Part shown: piece by piece, positions 25,871-55,915 of the stretch
How the letters are laid out: each line of letters begins with the position of its first letter
Numbering within the stretch: position 1 is the first letter of the stretch
Origin: Escherichia coli
GTDB lineage: Bacteria > Pseudomonadota > Gammaproteobacteria > Enterobacterales > Enterobacteriaceae
NCBI GenBank assembly: GCA_002099625.1
Contig: GCA_002099625.1_4857.1
Reading direction: 5' to 3' (one strand)
Length of the DNA: 64,000 nucleotides
Program-made: the position numbers and the translations under genes
Notes under the pieces: model-generated
Told to the model about the DNA's origin: nothing
Seen by the model: the letters and a program-made list of their open reading frames with translations, nothing else
The model's database searches: none

Positions 25871-25881
25871 GGATGATACCT

Positions 25882-27341: not shown

Positions 27342-28169
27342 TTAGCTGTTATAGTGGTAGTACGCCACGCCTTTCACGCCTTCCTCATCGATACCCGTTT
27401 GGATAACCACGCGGTCGTACGATTTGTTAGCGAACTGTGCGGTGGAAGTCGGCACATCCTGAACGGTGTTACTGTTCAGTGGCCCCGCGTAGTTCGGAAT
27501 ACCCAGGTCATCCAACACCTTACGCAAACCAGCCCACTGCGGTAGGCCAGAAGCATCTACTGTCAGTAGGTTTTTATACGCGGTAAAGTCAATACCGTAC
27601 GTCAACAAATCAATACACTTCTTACCGAGAGACGGTGAAATAGGCTCTTGAATCGCATTCAAGACATCTGATTTCACCGAAGTGTCTAGTACCGGTAAAC
27701 CACGGTTATAACGCAACGTCGCAGAACCGATATAAGCCGGAGATGTCGATAGCGCTGCAATGGTCTGTGTATTGGTGTAATTTGGGGTATTGGCACCCGC
27801 CAGTGAGTAGTTTTGGATATCGATTGCGGAGAAGTTTACTCCGTAGGTATCCAAGAGCACCGAAAAGGCTGAGTGGAGGTTGGGAGCGTCAAACGTGACG
27901 AACTGCGCCTGGACGGAAGGACCCCACGGCAATAACCGCGCTAAGTTCACACGGTCGTAGTAAACGGTGATTGCGTCTCGAAATCCGGAACCCTGAATAC
28001 CGCGCAAGCGTGCCGACGTATTGCGGTTGTTGGAAGCTGCATTAACGGGAACCTGTGTCACTTTCTCCACGTAGCAGTTTGCCGGCGACGCTTTAATAGG
28101 TAGGTTTGGGTTATCCCGGTTAATGAGGTCAAAGACCAACTCGTTTGACGGCTTAGCATAGTTGATCAT
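27342..28169 (-). CDS. approx 280-aa fibre-family paralogue 1 of 7
   Basis: ORF 27342-28172 (apparently TTG) trimmed to the adjacent ATG (28169), giving MINYAKPSNELVFDLINRDNP; module signature NRNT...VYYDRVNL. Confidence 0.6.
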   Translation of the reverse strand: MINYAKPSNELVFDLINRDNPNLPIKASPANCYVEKVTQVPVNAASNNRNTSARLRGIQGSGFRDAITVYYDRVNLARLLPWGPSVQAQFVTFDAPNLHSAFSVLLDTYGVNFSAIDIQNYSLAGANTPNYTNTQTIAALSTSPAYIGSATLRYNRGLPVLDTSVKSDVLNAIQEPISPSLGKKCIDLLTYGIDFTAYKNLLTVDASGLPQWAGLRKVLDDLGIPNYAGPLNSNTVQDVPTSTAQFANKSYDRVVIQTGIDEEGVKGVAYYHYNS

Positions 28170-28172
28170 CAA

Positions 28173-29060
28173 TTATACCTCGCTTGGATCGTCCAGATCG
28201 TTGAACTGGAGATACAACGTTCCGACGATGGTGGTACAAGTAACAGGCAGTTTCAACACCAGCGCATACTTGTACTTCGCGTTTGTCGGCATTGCAACAG
28301 GGTCATTCAAACCAACGCTGACAACCTCCGCGCCCGCCAAACCGTAGGAAGCGGAGGTGGTCGCTACCCATGCAGTACCCGTGATATCTTTCAGCAGGTT
28401 AACCATATCCGTTAACGGCTGTCCGGACAGAATACCCGGCACGTATGCCAGCAACTCATCACGGTATTTGGTGAAGTTGTACGGGTAGGAATAAACCTCT
28501 GCAATGACCGCAGTAACGGTTTCGGAACCCATCTGACCGTTCGGGTATTTCAGACCGGTCAGGACGTTAGTGGTGACTGCAGAGACTAACGACTCATCGC
28601 CTTTCACGACTTTAAATGTCGCCTGTCCAACCCAACCGATAGACTCAGGATGTGCAACAACACGCACAGTTCCTTCGGTCTTATCACCGTTCCATTCGAT
28701 ATCTGCGTCCTGCAGGTCAGCTTCTTCCAGAACAAAACCGTAACGTTGGTTCAGTCCAGGAATGGCCGCATACAAGGTTTCGTTGGATGGGCCGATCGCC
28801 AACGTGTCACCAATCAGCACTAACAAGTCTTCGATTTTCATGCGGTTGTAGAAGACATTTTTCTTACCCGACCAGGTAGAGCCCGTTACCCCATCTGCCG
28901 TAATTTTAATTTGCGTGTTACGGTTAGTCAGCGTTTCCTTCTCCGTACCACGGATGTCCTTTGGCGAGGACCAGATGATGTCAGTCATCTTAACAGCAAG
29001 CGAGTTCTGTGCGTTCACTGCTGCCAACAGGACGTCTTTAGAAGGTTGATAAATAGCCAT
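28173..29060 (-). CDS. approx 280-aa fibre-family paralogue 2 of 7
   Basis: 295 aa, ATG start; MAIYQPSKDVLLAAVNAQN...NRNTQIKI...FYNRMKIEDLL. Confidence 0.6.
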   Translation of the reverse strand: MAIYQPSKDVLLAAVNAQNSLAVKMTDIIWSSPKDIRGTEKETLTNRNTQIKITADGVTGSTWSGKKNVFYNRMKIEDLLVLIGDTLAIGPSNETLYAAIPGLNQRYGFVLEEADLQDADIEWNGDKTEGTVRVVAHPESIGWVGQATFKVVKGDESLVSAVTTNVLTGLKYPNGQMGSETVTAVIAEVYSYPYNFTKYRDELLAYVPGILSGQPLTDMVNLLKDITGTAWVATTSASYGLAGAEVVSVGLNDPVAMPTNAKYKYALVLKLPVTCTTIVGTLYLQFNDLDDPSEV

Positions 29061-29070
29061 TCGCTAATTC

Positions 29071-29910
29071 CTAGTTGTTGTAGTGCAACATACACTCGCC
29101 GATTACTTTCGGGTCGTTCTGAATGCCGGTAATCAGCAATACGTTATCGTACGCTTTATTGGCGGTCGCCAACTCACTCGTTTTGTAGCGGGTAATTGTG
29201 CAGTTCGTCGGATCAAACGACGGTACCCCACGTGCGACCAATGTGGCCATCAGATTGGACGTGTAACCCAAATCAAAGTTACTTCCTACGTCCATTCGTC
29301 CGTTCTTAAACGAGGCCATAACCTGCACTTCATCAGTAAAGTCTTCCCCGTACGTCAAGAAGCCCATGTATTTCTTACCAGTGCTTGCTGCTGCAGGGTG
29401 GTTCAAAGCCGACAAGATGTCGTTTACCACGAGGTCTTCGAGACTATTCTTACCCCGGATAGACATAAAGGTGATGCTGCCAGTGTATTGGATACAGCTA
29501 GCGTTAATACGCATCGTGTTGTTTACGTTCAGATAAACGTATTGTTCTGGGATATCGTCTGCAACCAGGTTTAATCCATAACGACCGTTCAGGTTCTGCG
29601 CAAACGCAGTACGTTTCGACTCCACGTTCAACCAACCGTAGGCATTCGGTGCAGTTACCTGAGGTGTCATGTTCTTAAATAAGTCGTTCAGCGACAAGCG
29701 CTTATAACGGAACGTCTGAGGACCGATATAGCCACGACCTTGACGACCACGAATGATAATCTCAGTATTGGCACCGCTTGCTGTCGGTGTGATTGCTTTC
29801 GGCGTACCGATGATAGCATTGTCTAAACCCATCGGTAGAACAGCATCCGGGTTTTCGGCATTAATCGCATCGTACAGATATTGTCGCTGAGACAGACTAT
29901 ATAAAGCCAT
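29071..29910 (-). CDS. approx 280-aa fibre-family paralogue 3 of 7
   Basis: ORF 29071-29928 trimmed to ATG 29910 preceded by GAGGAGG; MALYSLSQRQYLYDAINAENP. Confidence 0.6.
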   Translation of the reverse strand: MALYSLSQRQYLYDAINAENPDAVLPMGLDNAIIGTPKAITPTASGANTEIIIRGRQGRGYIGPQTFRYKRLSLNDLFKNMTPQVTAPNAYGWLNVESKRTAFAQNLNGRYGLNLVADDIPEQYVYLNVNNTMRINASCIQYTGSITFMSIRGKNSLEDLVVNDILSALNHPAAASTGKKYMGFLTYGEDFTDEVQVMASFKNGRMDVGSNFDLGYTSNLMATLVARGVPSFDPTNCTITRYKTSELATANKAYDNVLLITGIQNDPKVIGECMLHYNN

Positions 29911-29924
29911 AATAGCCTCCTCGG

Positions 29925-29967
29925 CCAAAAAAGAAAGGAGTAGCCAGGAGGAGGATTTCCTCCTCCC
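29925..29967 (-). terminator. rho-independent terminator inside the paralogue array
   Basis: GGAGGAGGA / TCCTCCTCC inverted repeat followed on the minus strand by CTCCTTTCTTTTTTGG. Confidence 0.5.
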
Positions 29968-29979
29968 AGCGAGGCCTAA

Positions 29980-30891
29980 TTAGGCATTAAAGTGCAGGTA
30001 CATGACGCCCTGGAAGTTGGTGCACAGAGTGTCATCCAGCTGCAGCAGCAGAACCTGGTTGTAAGCAGTGTTTGCACCTTCAACCGGTTTCTTAGGATCG
30101 TCGCCTGAAGCGGTGCCGTCGTCAGCAGTAGAACCAACGTACAACACGTTAGCACCTTTCAGGTTATAATCCGCAGGCTCATCAGATGCAACCCACAGTT
30201 CCGGCACAACTTTATTCAGCTCAACCGGGAATGCAGAGTCGCCAGCGATAACACCTTTCGTCTGTACTTTCAGGAATGCTGCGATTGCTGTGCAGTCTAC
30301 ACCGTAAGAGTAGATGTAACCCTGACCCTTCGCTTCGCTTGCACCATCTGGGTAAACCAGGCCGTCGAGCTTGGTTTGTGTTACCACCAGATTCAGACGT
30401 TCACCAACTTGAGGCTTAGCACCGATTTTAACCGGGATGCTGCCCAGATAAGCATAGCAGTCTTCTTTGAAGGTAATGACGTGGTCAACCGGTGCTGGGT
30501 CCGGATCGTTCGGGTTAGTCAGCGGCGGGTTGGTATTTTCCGGAATAGCCGCCGGAACGATATCGTCTTCGGTCAGCTTCAATCCGTATTGGGTGTTCAG
30601 GGTCGTCAGCAGGTCGGTGGTGGTTTTCGGCAGTTTAACGTCGAGGTATGCTGTTACATTACGGAACAGCGCACTGCCTTCCAGGCGATTATAAGTCACG
30701 TCCTGAGTACCGATGTACCCGGAGTTCTTTTTCGCAGTCAGGGTCATGCTGGTATTGCGATCGGCACCTCCATCGACAATAGGGGTCGGTGTGCCGAGCG
30801 TTATTTTAGAAAGTTCCAGTTCTGCGTCTGGGTTTTTCTCATTAATAAAATCCAGAACCAGCTGATCGGACGTTTTGTTTAAAGGTTTCAT
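29980..30891 (-). CDS. approx 280-aa fibre-family paralogue 4 of 7
   Basis: 303 aa, ATG start; MKPLNKTSDQLVLDFINEKNP...RNTSMTL. Confidence 0.6.
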   Translation of the reverse strand: MKPLNKTSDQLVLDFINEKNPDAELELSKITLGTPTPIVDGGADRNTSMTLTAKKNSGYIGTQDVTYNRLEGSALFRNVTAYLDVKLPKTTTDLLTTLNTQYGLKLTEDDIVPAAIPENTNPPLTNPNDPDPAPVDHVITFKEDCYAYLGSIPVKIGAKPQVGERLNLVVTQTKLDGLVYPDGASEAKGQGYIYSYGVDCTAIAAFLKVQTKGVIAGDSAFPVELNKVVPELWVASDEPADYNLKGANVLYVGSTADDGTASGDDPKKPVEGANTAYNQVLLLQLDDTLCTNFQGVMYLHFNA

Positions 30892-30912
30892 TCTTACTTC
30901 CTTTACTCAGGA

Positions 30913-31758
30913 TTAATCAGGGTCGTTGTAGTGCAAATACAAACGCCCGCCAAAATTCAGACAGTACAACGACAGCTCCACAATCAGCACGTTGTCGACT
31001 GCTGGGTTGGTTGGTAATTCCGCTTTGTTACGCCCGTTATAGACGACGACAGCTTCACGAAGGTTAAAGTCGATTGGGTTACGGTACGTTGTCCAGTTAT
31101 CACCGGTGACCGTTTTGAGAATCTGCGCCAGACGTTCTGCGGTTATCGCAGCACCTAGTCGTTGAAATTCCTCCGCGAAATTATCAAAGCGCCAGGGATA
31201 CGAATAAACTGCACCTTGACCGACCTTGATGTTGAAATACGGATACTCGTAAGGTGTCACTGTTAAGGGTTCGAAGTTTGCAGGAAGCAACGCATCGCCT
31301 GGTAACAGCTGTACCTGTTGTTGCCCTATCCAACCTAAAGAAGTGGGCGTGGCAATCAGATCCACACGCCATGTCTTCCTGTCGATTTCGGTATTCACCA
31401 CATCTGCGGGTTTAAGGCTGAGACCGTAATACTGGTTAATTAACCCGACCACGTCATGCATCTGGTAAACAGCGTCGAGACGTGCAGGAACACGTAGAGG
31501 TTGAATCCCGTCTGGGTCGGTAAACATGTCTGCGAAGTCAACACGATCGTAATACACGGTAGTGGCACCGATAGCATTAGCGGTGGCCAAAGCCTGAATG
31601 CGCACCATCGCGTTATGACCATTGGCTTTTGCCAGGTCTTCGTCAGACGTCGGTATCGCAGGGACACCGAAAACCACATCTTCGACTTTTAAATCGAGAT
31701 TGTTTTCGACGTTAACCTCCGCGATAATAATCTTTTCAGCAGTGGCTAAAAGTGGCAT
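30913..31758 (-). CDS. approx 280-aa fibre-family paralogue 5 of 7
   Basis: 281 aa, ATG start; ends LHYNDPD like family consensus (LH(Y/F)N). Confidence 0.6.
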   Translation of the reverse strand: MPLLATAEKIIIAEVNVENNLDLKVEDVVFGVPAIPTSDEDLAKANGHNAMVRIQALATANAIGATTVYYDRVDFADMFTDPDGIQPLRVPARLDAVYQMHDVVGLINQYYGLSLKPADVVNTEIDRKTWRVDLIATPTSLGWIGQQQVQLLPGDALLPANFEPLTVTPYEYPYFNIKVGQGAVYSYPWRFDNFAEEFQRLGAAITAERLAQILKTVTGDNWTTYRNPIDFNLREAVVVYNGRNKAELPTNPAVDNVLIVELSLYCLNFGGRLYLHYNDPD

Positions 31759-31768
31759 GTCAAAATCC

Positions 31769-32611
31769 TTATATCGGGAGATAGTGAAGGATGAGATTAC
31801 CGGCGTAGTTGCTGTCCGCAGCTAGCTTGATAATCGCCACACGCTGATAATCGGGGTTGTAACTATCGTTCGGTGTGACTGAAGTTATCCCCATATATCG
31901 TGCACCTTGAAGCGCAATTTGTTCAGGTTGCGCAGTCGCCCCCGTCACATATGCAAACTTTAATGGCACCACTTCGTTAAGCAATTCAACATCCGCCGCG
32001 GTGATTGCGCGGTTGTAAGCCCAATCGGTAGTGAACTGTTTTTGCAGTTCAGTCCAATCGTAACCATACGCCACATACTCAGCCTGTGGTTTACTAGCAA
32101 CCACGAACGGCGCGATGATTGCGCTGAGGTCAACATCCGTCACCACATCCGCCAAGTTCGGGAAGAACTTCGCAAAGCGTAAACGGAAACCACCTTGCCA
32201 GGCCAAGCAACCAGGCTTAATAGTCACATCGATTAACCAGCTTTCTCCCAAATCTTTTACTGACTGGTCAACGATATCGTCGGCAACTAAAGACAAGCCG
32301 TATTTCGCATTCAGAAACGGCAACAACTCAGAGAGTTTATTTACCGGGTCGGCAACGACTACCGGTATTACGTTCCTGAACAGAATTTCCATTTCGATAC
32401 GGTCGTATTCGAGCGTAACGTTGCCTTTGTAGCCCTTGCCGTTCAACCCGTATAAGAGCACACGCGTATTCCGGTCAGCGCCAGGCGTTTGGACAGACTC
32501 AGGGAAGCCAGTTGCAACCTGCTCCCATGTGAGTGGATTGGCCGTTAATCCGTTCTGTCGGTTAATAGCATCTAACAACATCTCTTTCGAGGGCTTATCG
32601 TAAATAGACAC
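31769..32611 (-). CDS. approx 280-aa fibre-family paralogue 6 of 7
   Basis: 280 aa; apparent GTG start preceded by GGAGGG; MSIYDKPSKEMLLDAINRQN...RNTRVLL...LEYDRIEM. Confidence 0.6.
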   Translation of the reverse strand: MSIYDKPSKEMLLDAINRQNGLTANPLTWEQVATGFPESVQTPGADRNTRVLLYGLNGKGYKGNVTLEYDRIEMEILFRNVIPVVVADPVNKLSELLPFLNAKYGLSLVADDIVDQSVKDLGESWLIDVTIKPGCLAWQGGFRLRFAKFFPNLADVVTDVDLSAIIAPFVVASKPQAEYVAYGYDWTELQKQFTTDWAYNRAITAADVELLNEVVPLKFAYVTGATAQPEQIALQGARYMGITSVTPNDSYNPDYQRVAIIKLAADSNYAGNLILHYLPI

Positions 32612-32621
32612 CTATACCCTC

Positions 32622-33419
32622 CTAGTTGTTAAAGTGTAGGTTGAGGGTGCCCTGGAAGTTCGTACATTTATCGGTCAGTTGCACTGACACGACTTTCGCG
32701 AACGCCGTATTTGCTCCCGGCAAGTCTGCAGGTACGCCGTCGAATACGACAGTGGCACCACGCAGGTTATACGGGGATGGGGTATCTTCAGCTACCCAAA
32801 TCTCAGGAACACATTTGTTGAGTTCGATTGCCAACGCCGTGTCATCTACCTCGATACCGACCGCTAAGAGGCTCAGGAAACGAGAGATGTGGCTACAATC
32901 GATGTCACGCGAATAGATATACGCCTGACCCAACTGGATGTCCTGGTGATCCGGGTACAGAAGACCGCTCAACTCTGTATTGGTTACTACTTCTGCCAGA
33001 GGTGTAGCAGGTTTCAGCTCGATGACCGCTTGACTTCGCCACTCGTGGGAAGTTTCAACAGCAACGACTGTGTGCGTCTGTCCATCAATGGGGTTATCTT
33101 CGATATCCTCAGGTAAGATAGACAGATTAAAACGCTCGTTAATCGCCGCGAGTAAGTCGTGCGTGGTTTGCACGTCCTCGTCTCCAAAGGCAACATCGCC
33201 TTTAAGGTAGTCCTCTAATGGACGACGATGGTAGTCCACAATCACTTGCGTACCTTCATCACCGCGCATCTTCGAGGTAAGGACTACCTCCGAATCACGA
33301 CCGTCTACTGACACAACCTCCGGCAGTCCGATATCAACATCGTCAAAGGTAAGCGGTGGGCTTATCTTATTCTCTTCGTTGATGAGTTTTAGCAGATTCT
33401 GTTTTGAAGTAAAAGACAT
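32622..33419 (-). CDS. approx 280-aa fibre-family paralogue 7 of 7
   Basis: 265 aa, ATG start; MSFTSKQNLLKLINEEN; ends LHFNN. Confidence 0.6.
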   Translation of the reverse strand: MSFTSKQNLLKLINEENKISPPLTFDDVDIGLPEVVSVDGRDSEVVLTSKMRGDEGTQVIVDYHRRPLEDYLKGDVAFGDEDVQTTHDLLAAINERFNLSILPEDIEDNPIDGQTHTVVAVETSHEWRSQAVIELKPATPLAEVVTNTELSGLLYPDHQDIQLGQAYIYSRDIDCSHISRFLSLLAVGIEVDDTALAIELNKCVPEIWVAEDTPSPYNLRGATVVFDGVPADLPGANTAFAKVVSVQLTDKCTNFQGTLNLHFNN

Positions 33420-42771: not shown

Positions 42772-43245
42772 CTAGTATCCTGTTCCGCAAATGGCCCCTT
42801 TCCAGGTTGTACCGCCATCCGTAGATGACAAAGACAACACATCCTCGGCGTCCAGCTTGTACGATAACGGAGGTTCTGCACCGTTAGGCCATTTAACCGA
42901 AGTCGGCCAGGTGATTTTGTTTGCACCGGTACCCTGACGTAGCGTCAGTAATAATTCATATCGCGTACCCGGAACCGGGTCGGTAATAGGTGTGATAGAA
43001 AGCGCAGTGGTGGGGTCACCTAAACGGATGATGAAGTCGTCCGCAACATTGGGATCTATTTCAACGATACCGTCAGCACCGGATAAGTTTTGGATAGGGT
43101 TTGCGTCTGCCCCACCACCGCCGATTTCACTGAGGGGAAGTTTGTACTCCTTTTCATCAACGCTGATAAGCGCTACTGCGCTCGACTTATCGCCGTTGTA
43201 AGAATCGAGTTCATGCAAACGTTTCTTTTTGACTACAGTTGCCAT
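42772..43245 (-). CDS. small structural-type hypothetical protein
   Basis: 157-aa ORF tightly packed between the two large genes. Confidence 0.5.
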   Translation of the reverse strand: MATVVKKKRLHELDSYNGDKSSAVALISVDEKEYKLPLSEIGGGGADANPIQNLSGADGIVEIDPNVADDFIIRLGDPTTALSITPITDPVPGTRYELLLTLRQGTGANKITWPTSVKWPNGAEPPLSYKLDAEDVLSLSSTDGGTTWKGAICGTGY

Positions 43246-45194
43246 TATGCATCGTCTCCGTAGGTTAACACTGCATCATCACCGATGCATAAAACAGTTT
43301 CTTCATCCAGACTTGCCACAGCTTCTTTTTCATTAAACGCCGTGAATGTAAAGGTAGCCGTCCATGCCGGCGAATCGTCACTCATCGGTGCAATCAACGG
43401 CTCGTTTGTTGGTGTAATAACCCCTGTCGAGATGTCTTCACGTGACAAGTTTAAACCGCACAACTGGTTTACAACTGTCGCTAAATCAGCATAGGTGTCG
43501 CCGGGAGCTACAGTAACTAGTATCGGTCCTTGCGGGTCGATAATTTTATTAGCGACTAGACGGTCGTAATAGACGGTAACCTTCTTGCCGTTAGGTTTAC
43601 GTGCTTTTGCAATGTACGCTTGCGTGGTACGGGCACTTTCAACACCTAAGTCGATAGGCCCCACTCCGCTTATTACAATCTCGTCAGGCGATAATGACAA
43701 TCCGTTATCGTGATTAATTAACGCCACAACGAGGCCCTTGGAGTCTAATCTAAGGTCAGGTGTAAAACGATTAGGGGGACTGTATTTTGCATTCAGTGCA
43801 GGTTTATCAACTAACCAAAAGCCGCTTGGTACGCAGGCCAAAATCACCCAGGCGGTATTTGTTGTCGACGGCCAATTAGGTAAAGTGTCGTAAGTTGGGT
43901 CATCGCACGAATCGCGATAACCGTGTTCACCCAGGAGAACATCGATATTATTAATTAGTTCAATTGCCCTAGTATCGTTCCCTAATTGTCTTTCAAATAA
44001 GGCAACACCGGCAGTTCCTTCAACCCAAACGCCGTCGACCGCAGTCGGATAACCCAATTCAACCTTATAAGGTGTGTAACCGCTGCATTCGGACGTTACT
44101 GCTCGAAACTTTTCCATGTAGCTGTGACACTGCGAAGCCAGCTCCGGTTTGAACTTAGCGATAAACAATCCACCCCAGCTTGACTGGTCTAAAGCGGCAG
44201 CGTCGTCATCGACATCGGCTCTAACGCCTTGACGCAATCGACCCTCTTCTTCTATCCAAAACTTGTCTAAAATTAGATTGCCTAACTCTATCGCCTTCGC
44301 GGCGTAGCTATCAAATCCAACCCTTCCCAATATCTCGAATAAAAACCACAAATCAACACAATGTTCCAAGGCCGAGAACGGTGCTACATAATTTTCATCG
44401 AACGTTTGCGTACCATCGGGGTTTGTAATAAAGCGGCCTTTACCCCCGAGATATAAGCCGTATCTCCTATCGTTTACATCGCTAACACGGAATCCTTCAA
44501 CCCAACTGAGCGAAAGAGTGAGCTTACTCCTAACTTGACCAACTAAGGTGCCGTTTGGATATTTCTCTAGGTAAAAAGCAAGGGCGTATAATACCCATGC
44601 CACATTGCCCATCCGATAATAGTTACGTGGAGACTTGGCAGACAAACGATTTACATAAAACTTAATACCACCGTCTGTGTCCACTAAAGCACAAAGCCCT
44701 TTAACATATTTCTCAACGGCTCCGTGATCTATAGCCATTAGTGCTAAAGCTGCCACCGCCTGATCGTACGTGTAACATCGATCTTTCATTACCTTGATAA
44801 CATCAGGTTCGGCGTCGCTGGGCATTAAGTAACTGCGTATACATAGAGGAAATTCCAGGGTTGTAATCCACTCTCCAGTTGATATATTGATTAGTCTAAA
44901 CTGTTTAGCACCGGCCCACGTACGTTTAAAAGAAAACGCCCCTGAGGCATCAAGAGGGGCTTCACCTAGCAAATACTCCCCGGTGGTGTAAGCATACATT
45001 ACCACTTTGTGGTTTGTGGGGTTGGTAACGTTGCTTTTTCCCGTCACGACCCCGATATAATCGTAGTCTACATTCTGATCTACGGACAGACTTACACTCG
45101 GGTCGTAGACCTCAGGAAGATCCAAGGTTAGCATTGTCTCTGTAGTATATTCGACCAACTCAGCAAAGTTGCGGATTATAGGTTTCGTCGTCAC
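43245..45194 (-). CDS. tail protein with putative enzymatic domain and a C-terminal copy of the shared fibre module
   Basis: ORF 43245-45290 trimmed to GTG 45194 preceded by GGAGG (the longer ORF would run through the upstream terminator); helix-rich N-terminal region; C-terminal segment NGKKVTVYYDRLVANKII matches the module signature. Confidence 0.55.
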   Translation of the reverse strand: MTTKPIIRNFAELVEYTTETMLTLDLPEVYDPSVSLSVDQNVDYDYIGVVTGKSNVTNPTNHKVVMYAYTTGEYLLGEAPLDASGAFSFKRTWAGAKQFRLINISTGEWITTLEFPLCIRSYLMPSDAEPDVIKVMKDRCYTYDQAVAALALMAIDHGAVEKYVKGLCALVDTDGGIKFYVNRLSAKSPRNYYRMGNVAWVLYALAFYLEKYPNGTLVGQVRSKLTLSLSWVEGFRVSDVNDRRYGLYLGGKGRFITNPDGTQTFDENYVAPFSALEHCVDLWFLFEILGRVGFDSYAAKAIELGNLILDKFWIEEEGRLRQGVRADVDDDAAALDQSSWGGLFIAKFKPELASQCHSYMEKFRAVTSECSGYTPYKVELGYPTAVDGVWVEGTAGVALFERQLGNDTRAIELINNIDVLLGEHGYRDSCDDPTYDTLPNWPSTTNTAWVILACVPSGFWLVDKPALNAKYSPPNRFTPDLRLDSKGLVVALINHDNGLSLSPDEIVISGVGPIDLGVESARTTQAYIAKARKPNGKKVTVYYDRLVANKIIDPQGPILVTVAPGDTYADLATVVNQLCGLNLSREDISTGVITPTNEPLIAPMSDDSPAWTATFTFTAFNEKEAVASLDEETVLCIGDDAVLTYGDDA

Positions 45195-45208
45195 AATTTC
45201 CTCCAGAA

Positions 45209-45250
45209 ACAAAAAAAAATAAGCTACCACACATATGATCGTGTGGTAGC
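45209..45250 (-). terminator. rho-independent terminator
   Basis: GCTACCACAC / GTGTGGTAGC 10-bp inverted repeat; minus-strand T-run TTATTTTTTTTTGT. Confidence 0.55.
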
Positions 45251-45264
45251 CTACTCGTACGCTG

Positions 45265-45660
45265 TTAGTGCAGTGTAGCACTGTGCACAACAGTTAACCC
45301 GCGACGTTTGATCTCATCCGCGATGGATTGCAACAGCTTATCGTAACCCACCTTTACAAATTCAGGTAAGCCACGGTCAACCATCTCCATCTCGGTGATT
45401 TCTTCACGGAAAACTTGACAACAGCCTTCTAAATAACGTTTAGCTTCTGTCACGTCATCGACATACCGCGCATAACTCAGGGCGATCGCGTAACCTTCTG
45501 CAATAAACGCATACTTCATGAAGACTTCTGGGTCGAGTTCTTCAACTGCCACGTCTAGACGTGAAGCGGTCTGACGTACAGAGTTACGTAATGATTCAGA
45601 AAACAGTGTAGTCGTAACCATATCCTGATTAGGAACGGTTTTAGGCATAATCAATTTCAC
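45265..45660 (-). CDS. hypothetical protein
   Basis: 131-aa ORF. Confidence 0.5.
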   Translation of the reverse strand: MKLIMPKTVPNQDMVTTTLFSESLRNSVRQTASRLDVAVEELDPEVFMKYAFIAEGYAIALSYARYVDDVTEAKRYLEGCCQVFREEITEMEMVDRGLPEFVKVGYDKLLQSIADEIKRRGLTVVHSATLH

Positions 45661-45671
45661 GAGGACTCTCC

Positions 45672-46055
45672 TTACGATAACTCGCCCATGTAAATTACTT
45701 CATAACCGAACCACTCACCGATTTCAATAAGGTAAGAAACTAGCAAGTGGCGATGACAGAATTTCCCCGGTGGGCAATAGCACATTAGTACGACCTCGCC
45801 CCGGCGGAGAATCTCTATCAGCTTATCAGTGTCTTCATCAAACAACCGACTAAGTTTCTGCAGGTAGCGTTTGGTATACGCAGCTTCTGCGTCGGGGCCT
45901 TTGTCAGACTTCTTGTAGTCCATCAGAAAGTCCCAGTCGGGTGCCAAATATTTCAGCCCCGACTTAACCGTTATATCCAGCTTTGGCAAATTCCGTTTTT
46001 CAGCTATCCGCCACTTCGCCAGTTGGAGCGTCCACAGCTTTACTTGCTTTGGCAT
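45672..46055 (-). CDS. hypothetical protein with Cys/His motif (possibly DUF488-like)
   Basis: ORF 45672-46106 trimmed to internal Met (MPKQVKLW) by residue arithmetic; motif VLMCYCPPGKFCHRHLL; my manual read of this stretch disagreed with the ORF-track frame by 1 nt, so coordinates follow the track. Confidence 0.4.
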   Translation of the reverse strand: MPKQVKLWTLQLAKWRIAEKRNLPKLDITVKSGLKYLAPDWDFLMDYKKSDKGPDAEAAYTKRYLQKLSRLFDEDTDKLIEILRRGEVVLMCYCPPGKFCHRHLLVSYLIEIGEWFGYEVIYMGELS

Positions 46056-47007
46056 TATTCGCTCTCTCTTTTTCTTTCTCCTGAAGCGCTTTAAAATGCG
46101 GTGCATATTCGCACCACTCTTCTGCTGTAAATGACGTGATAAACAGTCTTTCGGTATCTTCAGTTACCGTAAAGGTTGTGTGATTTCTTTTCGGGTCCTT
46201 AAAGTTAGCAAAAGTCGGTACGTCCAAACCCATAGCAGAAATAGCACCACCAAGAGCAGAGCACCATACCCGTCTGTAAGCATCGTTGATTTTAATCTCC
46301 CATCCCACAGACGGTGTAATACCAAGACTACGATAATTCTGCGACTTTGCCGACGGATGGGCATAAACGATGAGCATGTTATTCTCACGGTCTATCGCGA
46401 ATTCGTAGTTGTTGTAGTTACTGACCTGCACCAATCTACGAATGTCTTCCGGCAACTCCTGCCACATTTCCAGTTTCTCTTTATCCCACGCAGGTGTTAG
46501 AAGCGGTGGAACGCGGCCGGCATGATCTTGGAAATACATCAGTTCGCTATAAAGGTTCTTTAAGCGAGCGTACTCGTCTAATGTCCAATCTCCCAGCTCT
46601 AGACTATTCTCCAACGCATCTAACTTATTCCAGCCAACAACTGCATAGGCGTGGTGCTGTTTGCGTGTAATGTCGCACATCAGTTTAGCGAGGCCGTTAA
46701 CAACATTGCCTTGCTGAACCAGAGGCGACCAGCCGTTAGCGTAGCCGGCGCTAACGACAGGCGGAAAGTTCTCTTCCCCGAGCACCGCCCATGTAACACG
46801 ATCGGTTTGTGCGTGGTATCTGTCCATTAACCGTTCAACAATGGCCACACTACAAAGAATTTCCATGAAGTTCGCGTTACCTCCATTCCACATGGAGAAA
46901 TATGCAGGACGGACATGTCGTGCTTCATTGGCCGGTGCTTTGCACAACAGCTGATACATTATCCAGGTGGAATCCAACCCTGCTGAAAACGAAACGAGCT
47001 TCGTCAT
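46000..47007 (-). CDS. PP-loop ATP pyrophosphatase superfamily protein
   Basis: 335 aa; N-terminal VSFSAGLDST resembles the SGGxDS PP-loop of QueC / PAPS-reductase-like enzymes; specific function not assignable. Confidence 0.6.
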   Translation of the reverse strand: MTKLVSFSAGLDSTWIMYQLLCKAPANEARHVRPAYFSMWNGGNANFMEILCSVAIVERLMDRYHAQTDRVTWAVLGEENFPPVVSAGYANGWSPLVQQGNVVNGLAKLMCDITRKQHHAYAVVGWNKLDALENSLELGDWTLDEYARLKNLYSELMYFQDHAGRVPPLLTPAWDKEKLEMWQELPEDIRRLVQVSNYNNYEFAIDRENNMLIVYAHPSAKSQNYRSLGITPSVGWEIKINDAYRRVWCSALGGAISAMGLDVPTFANFKDPKRNHTTFTVTEDTERLFITSFTAEEWCEYAPHFKALQEKEKERANNAKASKAVDAPTGEVADS

Positions 47008-47015
47008 CCTTTACC

Positions 47016-47348
47016 TCACTTTTGTTTCTGTTTTTCTTCACGCATCAACTTAGCGTTCAGGTCGACCATGTAACCCGGTTTTTCCATCACCTGCACTTCT
47101 TCCCAGTTGCTTCCCACCGCCATTTTGAGGGTTCCTTGACGTACCGCGATTTCTTTTGCAGTGTCACGGCAGACCTCTAACGCTTCGTCCAAATCGTTAA
47201 AAGTTGTCTTCTGTGGTCCGTTAAAGGTTTTAGCGCATTCCAGGAATACACGTTCGTAAACATCCTGGTCGAGTAAGAGTGGTTTGTCCGCAGCGTGGGC
47301 AACCATAGGCGCAACGAGTGCGCCTAACAGAACTAAAACTTTCTTCAT
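47016..47348 (-). CDS. small secreted/periplasmic protein
   Basis: ORF 47016-47417 trimmed to internal ATG giving MKKVLVLLGALVAPMVAHA-ADKP (Sec signal peptide, AHA cleavage motif); ATGA start/stop overlap with upstream gene. Confidence 0.55.
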   Translation of the reverse strand: MKKVLVLLGALVAPMVAHAADKPLLLDQDVYERVFLECAKTFNGPQKTTFNDLDEALEVCRDTAKEIAVRQGTLKMAVGSNWEEVQVMEKPGYMVDLNAKLMREEKQKQK

Positions 47349-47830
47349 TGTTTCACCGTACGTAGAAATTGATAACGTGGGGTTTCTTCTGCCACAACAT
47401 CGAAAGATGGGATGCAAACAATCTTCCCATATCCATCGAGTTCTATACGTGGAGAAATCGTGATGGTGCCTGCACGCATCACTTCAATCGCTAACGCTTT
47501 GAGTGGGCCGTATGGTGTGAATTCACCGCGGAGTTGAAAGTAACCATCGACAACGCCATAGCAGACATTCGATACATAACCGCAAACGCGTACGAGTTCA
47601 ATACAACGTATCCGATCAATGGCGGCCTTTACTTCCCCGAACGATTGACACGGTTTAATCACAGGCGCGTCGAATTCACAGAAAACGTGTCCGCGACGTA
47701 ATGCTAACGATATCGTTTCGTCGGGACGGGCCGAGTCTTTAAATTCGTCGCACGGTATAGACAGTAGCAGTCCACTCGCGGATGCCACGGTTTGTGCGGG
47801 TATTTCCTTAACCTCGGTTTGTAGTTTCAT
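47345..47830 (-). CDS. hypothetical protein
   Basis: 161-aa ORF. Confidence 0.5.
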   Translation of the reverse strand: MKLQTEVKEIPAQTVASASGLLLSIPCDEFKDSARPDETISLALRRGHVFCEFDAPVIKPCQSFGEVKAAIDRIRCIELVRVCGYVSNVCYGVVDGYFQLRGEFTPYGPLKALAIEVMRAGTITISPRIELDGYGKIVCIPSFDVVAEETPRYQFLRTVKQ

Positions 47831-47920
47831 TTATTCACTCGATAATTAATGGGGTTAAAATCAAATCCATGTAACCTAGGGTCAATAGCGCCACTATCTC
47901 AATCGGCGTTAAATTCTCCA

Positions 47921-53345: not shown

Positions 53346-54164
53346 TTATAAGGTGCCGATTAGCTCCGTCACCGCTTTACGCTTATTCGCATCCGCAGAC
53401 ATATATCGACCTACTTGAACTTCGCGCCAAGTAAAGCCGTAATAAATATCGCGTGTGAGTAACGTATCTGCGTTTGACAGAACGACCTTATTGCCATCGG
53501 CAGCTTGTTGTTTTAAAAGTTTCGCTAACTCGCGGTGGTCAGCTTGTGAAAATTCTTTGCTGTGATACTGCGCGTGTTTAGCCGTATCCGAAAGTGGGAT
53601 GTAGGGCGGGTCGGCGTATATCACAGCGTTAGATGGGCACTTATTTAGGATGTCGCGGAAGTCCGCGCAGAGCAGCTCGACGTTGGTTTCCGAACAACGT
53701 TTTGCCCACGCCAGAATTTCCTCTTCAGGGAAATAGACACCGTTCGGGTGTTGACCATAGGGCACGTTAAACCCACCCGACTGATTGTATCTGCACAAAC
53801 CATTGTAACCATGACGTGTAAGATACAGGAACATCGCGGCGCGCTGGAGATTAGGTTTCCCCGTGGTTGCTTCGCTGTTAAATCCCTCGCGTCGTTCCAT
53901 GTAGAGACCGCGGTCCGTCCCATTTGCAAAGAGCGCCTTTGCTTCCAGAATCAGCGCTTCCGGACGATCGCGCGCCATGGTCAGTAACTCGATTAAGTCC
54001 GGGTTCGTGTCGCCGAGAATATAGTTCGGGTATTTAGTGTTTAAAAACACTGACCCTGCGCCCACAAAAGGTTCAACGAAATACTCAGCATCCGGAAACA
54101 CCTGTAGCAGCTCGGGCAGTACACGACTCTTACCACCCATCCATTTTAAAATTGGTTTTATCAC
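53346..54164 (-). CDS. dam: DNA adenine (GATC-type) N6-methyltransferase, Dam family
   Basis: 272 aa; LKWMGGKS, FVEPFVGAGSVFLNT (SAM-binding motif I), LYLTRHGYNGLCRYN and DPPY (motif IV) align closely with E. coli Dam; apparent GTG start. Confidence 0.85.
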   Translation of the reverse strand: MIKPILKWMGGKSRVLPELLQVFPDAEYFVEPFVGAGSVFLNTKYPNYILGDTNPDLIELLTMARDRPEALILEAKALFANGTDRGLYMERREGFNSEATTGKPNLQRAAMFLYLTRHGYNGLCRYNQSGGFNVPYGQHPNGVYFPEEEILAWAKRCSETNVELLCADFRDILNKCPSNAVIYADPPYIPLSDTAKHAQYHSKEFSQADHRELAKLLKQQAADGNKVVLSNADTLLTRDIYYGFTWREVQVGRYMSADANKRKAVTELIGTL

Positions 54165-54167
54165 CCG

Positions 54168-55169
54168 TTAACATCCTCTCATGCCAGATTGAAACATATC
54201 ACTGATAGTCAGCCTGGTTGTAGTCTCCACCGGAATGCTAGGTTCTTCTTTCAGCACTCGATCGGCGCGGTTCCCATTCACCCGTTTCCAGCTAATAAGT
54301 TCAGGATCGCGTTTCAACGTTAGTGTACGCAGTACCTGCTTGCAACGTAAGATGTTACCGTACAGGTGATTTGCTGGATTATTATCAGCAGCTGTTTCAA
54401 TATAGACTTGGTCGGAATGACGTTGTGCGAAATCGAATAGCGCGCCCATTAGCCGGCGGCCAATGCCACGTTTACGGTGCGTGGGTGCAACGGTTAAACC
54501 AGAAAGTTCAACGACGCCTGGTGTAACCAAGCGCATCTGGGCAATACCGACGATATCATGGCCGTCTCGCCAAATTGCAGTCTCCACATTAGCGTGCTGA
54601 ATTCTTGCTATTACTGTTTCTGCTAACGGACCAATGTGTGTATAGTAGCCACGCATATCGTATTCTAGCTCTTCGCAAATTGCACCGCTAATCAAATTCA
54701 GGATAACGTCTTTATCTTCCTTGGTAAGTTCTGCGTATGCATCACCAGAAATAATCTTGATTTCTGATGCGGTGATTACTTTGTCAAACAGTTTAGAATG
54801 ACATGCCCAAACGATATCTGAAAGAACAAACCCTTTTTCGACCAGTTTTTGTTCAACATCGTCAGTAGGTGCTGGGCACGACATATATTCGAATCCGGTA
54901 TGGTCGAGCACAAGGGCCAAACCAACTTTATCGAATGCCCCAGGTACAAACTCCTCAAAATAGTGACAGGTTAGCGTAGGGTCACCGTGTCGATAGGTGG
55001 CCACTAAATAACCCTCCCAGGTTTCTTTATTCTTCACCACGTAAACAGAATAAGTCTCGTCCTTTAGAAACTCTTTTAGGCGGCGTGCTCGTACAGTATC
55101 GCTACCGACGTTATTTCGGAACTCGGCAGTGCGGATGCTGGTGCGAAACAATTTAGCCACAGTTTTCAT
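54168..55169 (-). CDS. protein with C-terminal GNAT acetyltransferase domain
   Basis: ORF 54168-55292 trimmed to ATG 55169 (MKTVAKLF) with GAGGG RBS; acetyl-CoA-binding motif HRKRGIGRRLMGALFDFAQRH. Confidence 0.65.
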   Translation of the reverse strand: MKTVAKLFRTSIRTAEFRNNVGSDTVRARRLKEFLKDETYSVYVVKNKETWEGYLVATYRHGDPTLTCHYFEEFVPGAFDKVGLALVLDHTGFEYMSCPAPTDDVEQKLVEKGFVLSDIVWACHSKLFDKVITASEIKIISGDAYAELTKEDKDVILNLISGAICEELEYDMRGYYTHIGPLAETVIARIQHANVETAIWRDGHDIVGIAQMRLVTPGVVELSGLTVAPTHRKRGIGRRLMGALFDFAQRHSDQVYIETAADNNPANHLYGNILRCKQVLRTLTLKRDPELISWKRVNGNRADRVLKEEPSIPVETTTRLTISDMFQSGMRGC

Positions 55170-55217
55170 TGTAATGCCCTCAAAAGGTATTGCTGTCACA
55201 ACATGAGGATAATGCGT

Positions 55218-55255
55218 AAAAAGACAAAAAATTAAGGGGTCCGAAGACCCCTTAA
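55218..55255 (-). terminator. rho-independent terminator (CUUCGG loop)
   Basis: TTAAGGGGTC-CGAA-GACCCCTTAA hairpin; minus-strand T-run TTTTTTGTCTTTTT. Confidence 0.55.
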
Positions 55256-55258
55256 TGA

Positions 55259-55915
55259 TTACAGTTCCGGTTTGGAGACAAGCGTCGTCCAAGTTTCGGA
55301 ATGTTTGACACTGACGTGTGCTAGGCGATTCACCATGAACGCAAATTTGTCCATATGTTTCTGCACTTCGTTATCAGTCAGATTGCCAGCGATAACTTTA
55401 CCGTCTTTGGTCAGCACGATATAGCCGTGGTTGTTGTCTACCGTAGTGAACGCCACATCAATCGTAACCGGGTAAAGTTTCACCAGCGTCGGCAGAATGT
55501 GGCCAACACGATCGGCCATACCCGCAAGCTGGCCACAAAGGTCGGCTTTATCCTGCATGAACAAACGCAACATCGCTACTGCAAACACCGGATAGATGTT
55601 TTCGATTTGCGTGTCGTAACGAGACAGGCCGATAACTTCATCACCGCGGGTTAGCACCATGTTGTTCAGATGCGCTCCTTTATAGATGGTAAAGCGTACG
55701 TCGCTACCAAGGTTAACCGAAACGATTTCCTGACCAAGGTCAATCGGAAATTCACGTTCGATGTGAATCGTTTTCAGACGCTCACTGATCGGTACAATCA
55801 CATCCGGCTTCGGAATGCTAGATGTACGCGTGGATTCAGTAGTGCGCGTTTTTGTGGATTTAACCGCGCTGCTTGCCATTGAATCTTTTGCTACAGTTTT
55901 AGGGGCCTTCGCCAT
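55259..55915 (-). CDS. hypothetical protein
   Basis: 218-aa ORF; Ser/Thr/Lys-rich N-terminus. Confidence 0.5.
   Translation of the reverse strand: MAKAPKTVAKDSMASSAVKSTKTRTTESTRTSSIPKPDVIVPISERLKTIHIEREFPIDLGQEIVSVNLGSDVRFTIYKGAHLNNMVLTRGDEVIGLSRYDTQIENIYPVFAVAMLRLFMQDKADLCGQLAGMADRVGHILPTLVKLYPVTIDVAFTTVDNNHGYIVLTKDGKVIAGNLTDNEVQKHMDKFAFMVNRLAHVSVKHSETWTTLVSKPEL

What the first reader, a model, noticed from the sequence alone, without database searches (positions are those of the whole stretch)
45672..47007. PP-loop ATPase overlapping a small Cys/His-motif protein
The 335-aa protein starts with a PP-loop-like SFSAGLDST (SGGxDS family: QueC, PAPS reductase, tRNA thiolation/lysidine enzymes). 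In phages such enzymes often belong to DNA or tRNA hypermodification pathways. Its 3' end overlaps the start of a small protein with the motif CYCPPGKFCHRH. No other 7-deazaguanine pathway gene is evident in this window, so the substrate is open.
Basis: partly seen in the sequence, partly recalled or inferred. Interest (0 to 1): 0.35.

Follow-up and report, generated by a model that had tools for sequence, protein, structure and literature searches.

The report
Orphan QueC-like PP-loop enzyme, jumbo phage
The 335-aa protein is a real but very diverged ATP-using "PP-loop" enzyme, closest to QueC but without QueC's zinc site, found only in giant phages; the small overlapping Cys/His protein is a DUF488 domain common in giant phages, and the substrate of either is unknown.

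Summary
The window comes from a Salmonella jumbo phage close to SPN3US. ORF 46000-47007(-) is gp119. The overlapping small ORF is gp120, whose likely start is ATG 46055, giving a 56-nt overlap.

gp119 matches no Pfam or NCBIfam model on its own. A 46-member family profile places SGGxDS exactly on the PP-loops of Cap9, QueC, TilS, ArtA, LarE and argininosuccinate synthase. An AlphaFold model (pLDDT 81) retrieves only PP-loop enzymes.

The family is a QueC-like branch that has lost the Cys4 zinc motif and the YPDC and VPxRN substrate motifs. It has no conserved cysteine. It was found only in jumbo phages and in none of 185,579 GTDB species genomes.

The window has no FolE, QueD, QueE or TGT hit, so it is not a preQ0 synthase.

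The "Cys/His motif" is the strand-loop-helix loop of a DUF488-N3a domain (Pfam PF22751). That domain occurs in 290 phage records, including phiKZ gp151, and most of these lack gp119. The pairing is therefore lineage-specific.

In the EL-like clade the PP-loop gene abuts thymidylate kinase instead.

Most likely mechanism: ATP-dependent adenylation of a nucleobase- or nucleotide-like substrate followed by amine attack. The substrate is unknown.

Verdict: moderate interest; a new variant of a known kind.

The parts
46000..47007 (-). gp119 homologue (SPN3US_0119), 335 aa: diverged QueC-like PP-loop ATP pyrophosphatase without the zinc motif
   Evidence: ORF. PHROG 8825 at 1.4e-140. 99.7-100% identical to SPN3US and SPLA5c proteins. 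AF2 pLDDT 81, pTM 0.85. Foldseek hits are PP-loop enzymes only. Family profile against PDB.
46966..46992 (-). PP-loop motif S6-F-S-A-G-L-D-S-T14; family consensus (A/P)FSGGLDST
   Evidence: G10 and S13 are invariant in 46 sequences. The motif aligns on the SGGxDS of Cap9 9nto, QueC 2pg3/3bl5, TilS 1ni5, ArtA 9lei and LarE 5udq. It lies between strand 2-6 and helix 11-23 of the model.
46423..47007 (-). N-terminal Rossmann-like (HUP) nucleotide-binding domain, about residues 1-195. Conserved E49, Q98, G125-W126, D130, P172-x5-K178
   Evidence: Conservation. E49 aligns with the E of the Cap9/QueC Y/FxQ(x)5E motif. P172(x)5K178 aligns with Cap9/QueC PL(x)4K, but that second stretch is not significant on its own. 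Motif definitions are from PMC13329287.
46474..46494 (-). P172-A-W-D-K-E-K178 motif (P and K invariant)
46003..46422 (-). C-terminal region, about residues 196-335. A beta-hairpin and helix with invariant K221 and conserved Y225 and G229 replace the QueC zinc ribbon. A long terminal helix and a disordered tail follow
   Evidence: Model secondary structure. The outgroups L015pp and L029pp keep CxxCxxC at the equivalent place. The family has no conserved Cys.
45672..46055 (-). gp120 homologue (SPN3US_0120), 127 aa: DUF488-N3a domain protein
   Evidence: Pfam PF22751 at 1.4e-11, 45.2 bits (cut-off 27), and PF04343 at 3.9e-6. RefSeq names it 'DUF488 family protein' with the same start. AF2 pLDDT 95.7.
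45747..45782 (-). C92-Y-C-P-P-G-K-F-C-H-R-H103 motif, running from the end of strand beta3 through a loop into the start of helix 101-115
   Evidence: C92, C94, F99, C100, H101 and R102 are invariant in 17-20 homologues. Secondary structure.
46000..46055 (-). 56-nt out-of-frame overlap. The gp119 tail ...AVDAPTGEVADS* and the gp120 N-terminus MPKQVKLWTLQLAKWRIA are read from the same DNA, with gp120 in the +1 frame
   Evidence: Three-frame translation. The same arrangement occurs in Erwinia phage pEa_SNUABM_9 at 36% protein identity.
47345..47830 (-). Neighbour gp117: truncated paralogue of the prohead protease (S80)
   Evidence: PHROG 7478 at 1.7e-47. Described in PMC5694885.
47016..47348 (-). 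Neighbour gp118: small protein of unknown function with an N-terminal signal-peptide-like sequence
   Evidence: ORF. PHROG 10627. RefSeq CDS.

Best explanation
gp119 belongs to a phage-restricted, zinc-less offshoot of the QueC branch of PP-loop ATP pyrophosphatases.

Shown:
- The ATP-binding core is kept: the SGGxDS loop, a conserved Glu after beta2 and the P(x)5K motif.
- The Rossmann-like fold is kept.
- The QueC zinc ribbon, YPDC and VPxRN motifs are gone.
- No cysteine is conserved.

Inferred mechanism: like other PP-loop enzymes, gp119 binds Mg-ATP, adenylates a carboxyl or carbonyl oxygen of its substrate and releases PPi. A nitrogen nucleophile (ammonia or an amine) then displaces AMP. 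Sulfur transfer by the enzyme itself is unlikely because it has no cysteine.

Inferred substrate: most likely a nucleobase- or nucleotide-like small molecule. This rests on three things, all weak. All close structural relatives act on such substrates. Conserved aromatic residues (W126, W174, Y225) line the family signature. In the EL-like clade the gene is fused into an operon with thymidylate kinase.

It is not a preQ0 synthase.

gp120 is a separate DUF488-N3a domain. [quoted passage not shown] It is conserved far more widely, so it works independently of gp119.
For: PP-loop identity:
- Profile against PDB: Cap9 5.4e-5, QueC 2e-3, TilS 3e-3, ArtA, LarE and argininosuccinate synthase, all aligned on the motif.
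- Foldseek PDB top 50 are LarE, GMP synthase, ArtA and YcfA, with probability about 1.
- In BFVD, after the protein's own family, the hits are phage proteins named QueC.
- Pfam QueC touches 18 of 46 members.
- A distant member also hits the PHROG 'QueC-like' family.

Loss of QueC features:
- No invariant Cys in the family.
- The outgroups keep CxxCxxC.
- Motif definitions come from PMC13329287.

No 7-deazaguanine partners: Pfam and NCBIfam scans of 76 window ORFs.

Phage restriction:
- Only 46 representatives among 1.84 billion proteins.
- All loci with long context are jumbo-phage contigs of about 130-290 kb (mostly 230-290 kb), or fragments of them.
- No relative in GTDB genomes.

Thymidylate kinase adjacency: seven EL-like loci.

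gp120 independence: 290 records against 68, including phiKZ PHIKZ151. DUF488-N3a occurs without the PP-loop gene in L019 and L020.
Against: - No substrate, product or activity is known.
- The window protein alone passes no curated family threshold.
- TM-scores to solved PP-loop enzymes are low: 0.22-0.38 on the query and 0.54 on YcfA.
- The SPN3US clade has Ala in place of the first Gly of SGGxDS.
- Gene order is broadly conserved in these phages, so adjacency to thymidylate kinase or DUF488 is weak functional evidence. A third clade (L021-L023) has neither neighbour.
- The biochemical role of DUF488 rests only on a computational classification. I could not read that paper here.
Confidence: 0.6

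Rival explanations
1. gp119 is a true QueC (preQ0 or ADG synthase) that feeds a 7-deazaguanine DNA or tRNA modification, using host CDG or partner genes elsewhere in the genome.
For: Its closest families are QueC and Cap9. JGI names one homologue a 7-cyano-7-deazaguanine synthase.
Against: The zinc motif C(x)8CxxCxxC and the YPDC and VPxRN motifs, whose tested residues Y131 and R99 are essential in E. coli QueC (PMC13329287), are absent, and no Cys is conserved. No FolE, QueD, QueE or TGT hit in the window. None is annotated in the SPN3US regions I inspected. The two radical-SAM genes in the window look like peptide maturases, not QueE.
Confidence: 0.05
2. gp119 and gp120 form a split ThiI-like thiolation system. 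gp119 adenylates a base carbonyl and gp120 acts as a rhodanese-type persulfide carrier that delivers sulfur.
For: The genes overlap and are probably translationally coupled. gp120 has invariant cysteines on a strand-loop-helix like rhodanese or Cys-phosphatase active sites. Structural neighbours LarE and YcfA are sulfur-inserting PP-loop enzymes.
Against: The phyletic patterns do not match. DUF488-N3a is present in phiKZ and hundreds of phages without gp119. gp119 relatives in EL, Miami and L021-23 have no DUF488 within 7 kb. No cysteine desulfurase was found nearby. The DUF488 clade is classified as phosphate-handling rather than sulfur-carrying (from memory of Burroughs and Aravind 2023).
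Confidence: 0.08
3. gp119 is a protein-modifying ligase like Cap9 or QatC, or a decoy or antagonist of host deazaguanylation-based immunity (type IV CBASS, Qat).
For: The best sequence hit among solved structures is Cap9. The QueC scaffold has been repurposed repeatedly for protein conjugation. Orphan QueC-like genes recur in many jumbo phages.
Against: Cap9 and QatC keep zinc motifs and act with a TGT-like or QatB partner. No partner was seen here. There is no PADLOC hit. The similarity is limited to the ATP-binding core.
Confidence: 0.07
4. gp119 is a catalytically dead PP-loop fold kept for a structural or regulatory role.
For: It carries the variant motif S-A-G-L-D-S. It has lost all QueC substrate motifs. 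It sits beside a degenerate protease paralogue, gp117.
Against: G10, S13, Q98, P172, K178 and K221 stay invariant at 18% mean column identity across distant clades. It is not mentioned in the two SPN3US virion and head-assembly papers I searched.
Confidence: 0.1
5. The overlap is a programmed +1 frameshift site that makes a gp119-gp120 fusion protein.
For: gp120 is in the +1 frame and that frame is open for about 38 codons upstream of its ATG.
Against: gp120 has its own ATG with a purine-rich stretch upstream. No fused homologue appears among 46 family representatives. In L003 and Kwan-type phages the two genes lie 2.5-2.8 kb apart.
Confidence: 0.02

Closest known systems
QueC family (Pfam PF06508), including canonical QueC and the minimal Cap9 of type IV CBASS
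   Same: An SGGxDS PP-loop at the beta1-alpha1 junction. A conserved Glu after beta2. A P(x)5K motif. The Rossmann-like fold. It gives the best profile and structure matches.
   Different: No Cys4 zinc ribbon and no YPDC or VPxRN motifs. An extra C-terminal region of about 140 aa. No queD, queE or TGT context. The window protein scores below the Pfam threshold. The family is restricted to jumbo phages.
Other PP-loop ATP pyrophosphatases: LarE, GMP synthase ATP-PPase domain, YcfA (6-thioguanine), ArtA nitrile synthetase, TilS
   Same: The fold and the ATP-binding loop. They are the top Foldseek hits.
   Different: No catalytic or iron-sulfur cysteines (LarE and YcfA-type chemistry), no glutamine amidotransferase partner, and no tRNA-binding domains. 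TM-scores are only 0.2-0.5.
Orphan 'QueC-like' proteins of other jumbo phages (RSF1/RSL2, FLC6/8/9, PA1C/PS119XW, Noxifer; also IMG/VR L015)
   Same: Stand-alone PP-loop genes in jumbo phages with no visible queuosine pathway. They are structural neighbours.
   Different: The one such protein whose sequence was read here (L015pp, from a 233-kb IMG/VR contig) still carries the CxxCxxC zinc motif. The gp119 family has replaced it.
[quoted passage not shown]
   Same: gp120 passes the Pfam threshold. The invariant C-x-C...CHR lies on a strand-loop-helix.
   Different: No biochemical function is known for any DUF488. There is no significant match to a solved structure.

Membership tests
PP-loop ATP pyrophosphatase superfamily | SGGxDS/T motif in the loop between the first strand and first helix | tested here: met
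   S8-A-G-L-D-S13 lies between E2-6 and H11-23. The family consensus is SGGLDS with G10 and S13 invariant. It aligns on the motif of six solved PP-loop families.
PP-loop ATP pyrophosphatase superfamily | Rossmann-like alpha/beta nucleotide-binding fold | tested here: met
   Foldseek against PDB gives 35 hits at E<=1e-3, and every listed hit (the top 50) is a PP-loop enzyme, with probability 0.9-1.0. TM-scores are modest.
PP-loop ATP pyrophosphatase superfamily | ATP is split to AMP + PPi through an adenylated substrate | not testable with these tools
   This needs an enzyme assay.
Canonical QueC (preQ0 synthase) | C(x)8CxxCxxC zinc-binding motif | tested here: not met
   No conserved Cys in 46 members. 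The outgroups L015pp and L029pp keep it.
Canonical QueC (preQ0 synthase) | YxQxHxxE, VPxRN and YPDC substrate and ATP motifs (PMC13329287) | tested here: not met
   Only the Glu (E49) is kept. LVQQGN sits roughly where VPxRN would be. There is no YPDC.
Canonical QueC (preQ0 synthase) | Pfam PF06508 at the gathering score | tested here: not met
   The window protein gives no hit at E<=1. 18 of 46 relatives hit weakly, the best at 2.4e-6.
Canonical QueC (preQ0 synthase) | Linkage to queD, queE, folE, or a TGT/DpdA | tested here: not met
   No such Pfam family at 1e-4 among 76 window ORFs. The radical-SAM genes are peptide-maturase-like. The rest of the genome was checked only through sparse RefSeq names.
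TilS / ATP_bind_3 | PF01171 at threshold plus substrate-binding C-terminal domains | tested here: not met
   Only the PP-loop aligns. 13 of 46 relatives hit weakly.
PAPS reductase / DndC-like | PF01507 similarity | tested here: not met
   It is absent from the family hit list and from the structural hits.
DUF488-N3a (gp120) | PF22751 at the gathering score | tested here: met
   45.2 bits against a cut-off of 27. The precomputed PF22751 is on nearly all of the full-length homologues returned.
DUF488-N3a (gp120) | Retained active-site-type Cys...CHR loop on a strand-loop-helix | tested here: met
   C92, C94, C100, H101 and R102 are invariant. They lie between strand 87-92 and helix 101-115 in a model with pLDDT 95.7.
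DUF488-N3a (gp120) | Phosphatase or phosphotransfer activity | not testable with these tools
   No DUF488 has been characterised. There is no significant PDB match.

The most novel reading that the evidence does not exclude
Nucleus-forming jumbo phages carry orphan QueC-derived enzymes, of which gp119 is a zinc-less form. These enzymes catalyse a so far undescribed ATP-dependent ligation on a nucleotide, on DNA or on a protein. That would be either a new phage nucleotide or DNA modification, or a counter-measure to host deazaguanylation-based immunity (type IV CBASS, Qat). In the SPN3US lineage it would be coupled to a DUF488 phosphate-processing step.
Probability: 0.12. Interest if true: 0.75.

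Novelty: new variant of a known kind. Interest (0 to 1): 0.38.

Why it matters
QueC-family scaffolds have recently been shown to do much more than make preQ0. They also conjugate nucleobases to proteins in anti-phage defence.

This work defines a distinct phage-only branch that keeps the ATP-activating core and has discarded the zinc site and all substrate motifs. Its chemistry or substrate must therefore differ.

SPN3US has a working amber-mutant genetic system, so the gene can be tested directly.

The work also gives a concrete identity to the neighbouring DUF488-N3a gene, the phiKZ gp151 family. It is one of the more widely conserved unknown genes of nucleus-forming phages.

If gp119 turns out to be a routine or dispensable nucleotide-salvage enzyme, the finding is of limited reach.

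Tried and rejected
- Single-sequence searches of gp119 against Pfam, NCBIfam and PDB gave nothing usable. An 11-sequence profile gave only TilS at E=0.17. The exhaustive search was needed to build a useful profile.
- I could not read Burroughs and Aravind 2023 on the rhodanese-phosphatase superfamily. What I say about DUF488 classification beyond the Pfam name is from memory.
- I looked for a conserved functional partner of gp119. DUF488 is adjacent only in the SPN3US/Erwinia lineage. Thymidylate kinase is adjacent only in the EL-like clade. Neither is adjacent in L021-23 or Miami. No universal partner was found.
- I looked for fused PP-loop-DUF488 proteins and for frameshift signals. None was found.
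- I suspected the two radical-SAM genes in the window might be QueE. They match CXXX-repeat and PapB peptide maturases instead.
- Foldseek of the gp120 model against PDB gave no significant match. A sequence profile against PDB also gave none.
- PADLOC gave only weak hits of gp120 to candidate systems PDC-M45C and PDC-M19A, and none for gp119.
- In the SPN3US literature, gp119 and gp120 are not mentioned in the papers I could search.
- A related-loci run with the full 46-sequence alignment failed because no stretch was conserved enough.
Full report
**What is there.**
The window is from a Salmonella jumbo phage of the SPN3US group (Seoulvirus). Positions 45200-47900 are 99.4% identical to SPN3US. 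The 335-aa ORF at 46000-47007 (-) is SPN3US gp119. The overlapping small ORF is gp120.

gp119 begins MTKLVSFSAGLDSTW. gp120 carries CYCPPGKFCHRH.

The maximal small ORF starts at 46106. However, the DUF488 domain starts with the strand VKLWTLQL, and RefSeq starts the orthologue at MPKQ. The likely start is therefore ATG 46055, giving 127 aa and a 56-nt overlap.

In the overlap the gp120 N-terminus (WTLQLAKWR, with W15 and R16 nearly invariant) is read in the +1 frame over the gp119 tail (DAPTGEVADS). The same arrangement exists in Erwinia phage pEa_SNUABM_9, whose gp119 homologue is only 36% identical. The apparent conservation of the gp119 tail is best explained as a by-product of constraint on the gp120 frame.

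**Is gp119 a PP-loop enzyme?**
On its own it passes no curated model. There is no Pfam hit at E<=1, nothing in NCBIfam, and nothing significant in PDB. It belongs to PHROG 8825, function unknown.

A word-indexed search found only 17 relatives. A profile search of 1.84 billion representative proteins found 46.

The 46-sequence alignment has 18% mean column identity. It has the consensus AFSGGLDSTY, with G10, S13, Q98, G125, P172, K178 and K221 invariant. The SPN3US clade has S-A-G-L-D-S.

A profile of this alignment hits solved PP-loop proteins, each aligned exactly on its SGGxDS loop:
- Cap9: 5.4e-5
- QueC: 2e-3 and 1.2e-2
- TilS: 3e-3
- ArtA nitrile synthetase: 7e-3
- LarE: 1.5e-2
- argininosuccinate synthase: 1.9e-2

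Of the 46 members, 18 touch Pfam QueC, 13 touch ATP_bind_3, and none touch PAPS_reduct.

The AlphaFold model (pLDDT 81, pTM 0.85) puts the motif between strand 2-6 and helix 11-23. Foldseek against PDB returns only PP-loop enzymes: LarE, GMP synthase, ArtA and YcfA, with probability about 1. TM-scores are modest, up to 0.54 on the target. Against viral models the hits after its own family are phage proteins annotated as QueC.

That test is passed.

**Which branch, and is it QueC?**
The defining features of canonical QueC were taken from Libby et al. 2026 (PMC13329287). They are:
- SGGxDS;
- a C(x)8CxxCxxC zinc motif;
- YxQxHxxE, VPxRN and YPDC;
- linkage to queD and queE.

gp119 keeps the PP-loop. 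It keeps the Glu of the second motif (E49 aligns with the Cap9 and QueC Glu). It keeps P(x)5K, which aligns with PL(x)4K of Cap9 and QueC, although that second stretch is not significant on its own.

It has no conserved cysteine at all, so no zinc ribbon. It has no YPDC or VPxRN.

Two more distant phage proteins, L015pp and L029pp, match the family profile at about 1e-22 when scored on their own (3e-20 to 5e-19 in the ORF screens). They still carry CxxCxxC at the place where gp119 has a hairpin followed by sAKxxxYxxxGI. L029pp passes the Pfam QueC threshold. This supports descent from a QueC-like ancestor with loss of the metal site.

A Pfam scan of 76 window ORFs found no GTP cyclohydrolase, PTPS/QueD, QueE-type or TGT family. 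The two radical-SAM proteins at 6518-8789 resemble CXXX-repeat and PapB peptide maturases, not QueE. gp119 is therefore QueC-like in ancestry and core mechanism, but it is not a QueC.

**Distribution and context.**
Every locus with enough flanking DNA lies on a jumbo-phage contig of about 130-290 kb (mostly 230-290 kb), or a fragment of one. These are:
- SPN3US-like Salmonella phages and many Erwinia phages;
- Pseudomonas phage EL gp200 and Klebsiella phage Miami gp102, annotated as a 'rossmann fold-containing protein';
- several IMG/VR contigs.

Pattern scans of 185,579 GTDB species genomes found no relative.

The neighbours differ by clade:
- In the SPN3US/Erwinia lineage the next gene is DUF488-N3a, usually overlapping. 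In L003 and Kwan-type phages it lies 2.5-2.8 kb away.
- In the EL-like clade the next gene is thymidylate kinase, with a 4-8-nt overlap in several loci.
- In Miami and in L021-L023 neither is nearby.

In the SPN3US/Erwinia lineage and in the EL-like clade the gene lies a few kb downstream of the prohead protease or of its truncated paralogue gp117. That points to inherited synteny rather than a functional operon.

Other jumbo phages carry orphan 'QueC-like' genes, again among unknown genes. These include RSF1/RSL2, FLC6/8/9, PA1C/PS119XW and Noxifer.

**The small protein.**
gp120 passes the Pfam threshold for PF22751, 'Active DUF488-N3 subclade', and for DUF488.

Its model is very confident (pLDDT 95.7). 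It is a small alpha/beta domain in which C92-Y-C94 ends strand 3. PPGKF forms a loop. C100-H101-R102 starts the next helix. All of these residues are invariant.

This strand-loop-helix is the geometry of phosphate-binding active sites in rhodanese and Cys-phosphatase folds. That fits the published computational placement of DUF488 in the RapZ-C/DUF488/DUF4326 clade. I cite Burroughs and Aravind 2023 from memory, because the paper was not available. A related statement about DUF4326 is in PMC9503650.

No solved structure matches significantly, and no DUF488 has a demonstrated activity. I cannot exclude that three Cys and one His bind a metal.

gp120 homologues occur in 290 phage records, including phiKZ PHIKZ151 and jumbo phages of Vibrio, Serratia, Klebsiella and Xanthomonas. 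Most of these lack gp119. DUF488-N3a loci without a PP-loop gene were confirmed directly in L019 and L020. The two proteins are therefore not an obligate pair.

**Mechanism.**
Shown: the ATP-binding core and fold are conserved under strong divergence. Cysteines and QueC substrate motifs are absent. The family is restricted to phages.

Inferred:
- gp119 adenylates a carboxyl or carbonyl oxygen and releases PPi. An amine or ammonia then displaces AMP. This is the chemistry of QueC, GMP synthase, TilS, argininosuccinate synthase and Cap9.
- Sulfur insertion by gp119 itself is unlikely without a cysteine.
- A nucleobase- or nucleotide-like substrate is my best guess. The grounds are its structural relatives, the conserved aromatic and acidic residues (W126, D130, W174, Y225), and the thymidylate kinase coupling in one clade. 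This is weak evidence.
- gp120 is probably co-translated with gp119 in this lineage and may act on the same metabolite pool. Its wide independent distribution argues for a separate role.

I put 0.6 on the general statement and about 0.3 on the nucleotide-substrate part.

**Rivals.**
- True QueC: 0.05. The defining motifs and partners are missing.
- Split ThiI-like thiolation with gp120 as sulfur carrier: 0.08. The distributions do not match.
- Cap9/QatC-like protein ligase or anti-defence decoy: 0.07. No partner was seen, and the similarity is limited to the core.
- Dead enzyme: 0.1. This is contradicted by the invariant core residues.
- Frameshift fusion: 0.02.

**Novelty and score.**
The PP-loop nature is hinted at in scattered automatic annotations. 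JGI names one homologue 'QueC', and Miami gp102 is called 'rossmann fold'. However, the family is not in Pfam QueC, is not treated in the 2026 QueC family survey, and has no known function.

I rate it a new variant of a known kind. It is a zinc-less, phage-only QueC derivative.

Interest is moderate at 0.38. It is a clear, testable orphan enzyme in a genetically tractable jumbo phage, but there is no evidence yet of unusual biology.

Noticed in passing
window 4592-8789 (+): Two small Cys/Gly/Ser-rich ORFs with CXXX repeats (130 and 134 aa, for example CSGSCSASCIGSCSST) are followed by a 295-aa ORF of unknown family and two radical-SAM proteins (316 and 442 aa). The larger radical-SAM protein best matches TIGR04115, 'radical SAM peptide maturase, CXXX-repeat target family' (3e-36, below its cut-off), and PapB ranthipeptide maturase. 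This looks like a RiPP-like cassette in a jumbo phage. One window ORF also hits Pfam GP38 tail-fibre adhesin; I did not determine which ORF.
   Followed up: partly
window 47345-47830 (-) and related loci L005, L007-L014, L017, L019: gp117 is the truncated paralogue of the prohead protease described by Ali et al. 2017. In EL-like phages the PP-loop gene lies about 4 kb downstream of the full-length S80 protease. In L019 a DUF488-N3a gene does too. The gp117-gp120 block may therefore be a relic of an ancestral head-protease neighbourhood.
   Followed up: partly
window 47016-47348 (-): gp118 starts MKKVLVLLGALVAPMVAHA/ADKP, which looks like a Sec signal peptide. This judgement is by eye only. It sits oddly with the published suggestion that gp118 is the detached C-terminal part of the protease paralogue.
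   Followed up: no
phiKZ AF399011.1 155331-155675 (hit H60): The DUF488-N3a protein is 39% identical to phiKZ PHIKZ151. It is present in 290 phage records across jumbo phages of Pseudomonas, Vibrio, Serratia, Klebsiella, Xanthomonas and Erwinia, plus partial matches in ICP1. It is a widely conserved gene of unknown function in nucleus-forming phages.
   Followed up: partly
L020 1595-2044 (+): A 149-aa ORF lies about 0.5 kb downstream of a DUF488-N3a gene. Its motifs (LSN...F...F.S.E.YW) remind me of NADAR/YbiA-type ADP-ribose-processing domains. I did not check this with a profile.
   Followed up: no
L029 4788-9585 (+): A zinc-motif-bearing QueC-family protein (343 aa, passes the Pfam QueC cut-off) sits between an SNF2 helicase and a family A DNA polymerase. 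A Macro-domain protein lies just upstream, and gp32-like, RecA and 5'-3' exonuclease genes are on the other strand. There are no other queuosine genes in the 11.4 kb held for this locus (from a 14.7-kb contig).
   Followed up: partly
window about 17156-33419 (-): Fourteen ORFs in the window match Pfam DUF7941 (best 7.6e-88). Which ORFs they are was not determined; they are probably the run of about 265-330-aa ORFs here. This would be a large tandem paralogue array.
   Followed up: no
window 43245-45290 (-): A 681-aa ORF occupies the place where SPN3US has a 178-aa 'virion structural protein' next to the tail-fibre genes. The window phage therefore differs from SPN3US in this host-range region, although it is 99.4% identical across gp117-gp121.
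   Followed up: no
L003 8932-9423, L005 3641-4657, L019 7472-8044: Out-of-frame overlaps of 44-56 nt between consecutive genes recur in these phages. Examples are PP-loop/163-aa, AAA ATPase/338-aa and 190-aa/DUF488. The gp119/gp120 overlap may be one case of a general genome habit, or of gene-start miscalls.
   Followed up: partly
window 53346-55292 (-) and 56870-57577 (-): A Dam-type N6-adenine DNA methyltransferase (1.3e-53), a GNAT acetyltransferase and a thymidylate kinase lie 6-10 kb upstream of gp119 on the same strand. The methyltransferase and acetyltransferase are also upstream of the homologue in L003.
   Followed up: partly
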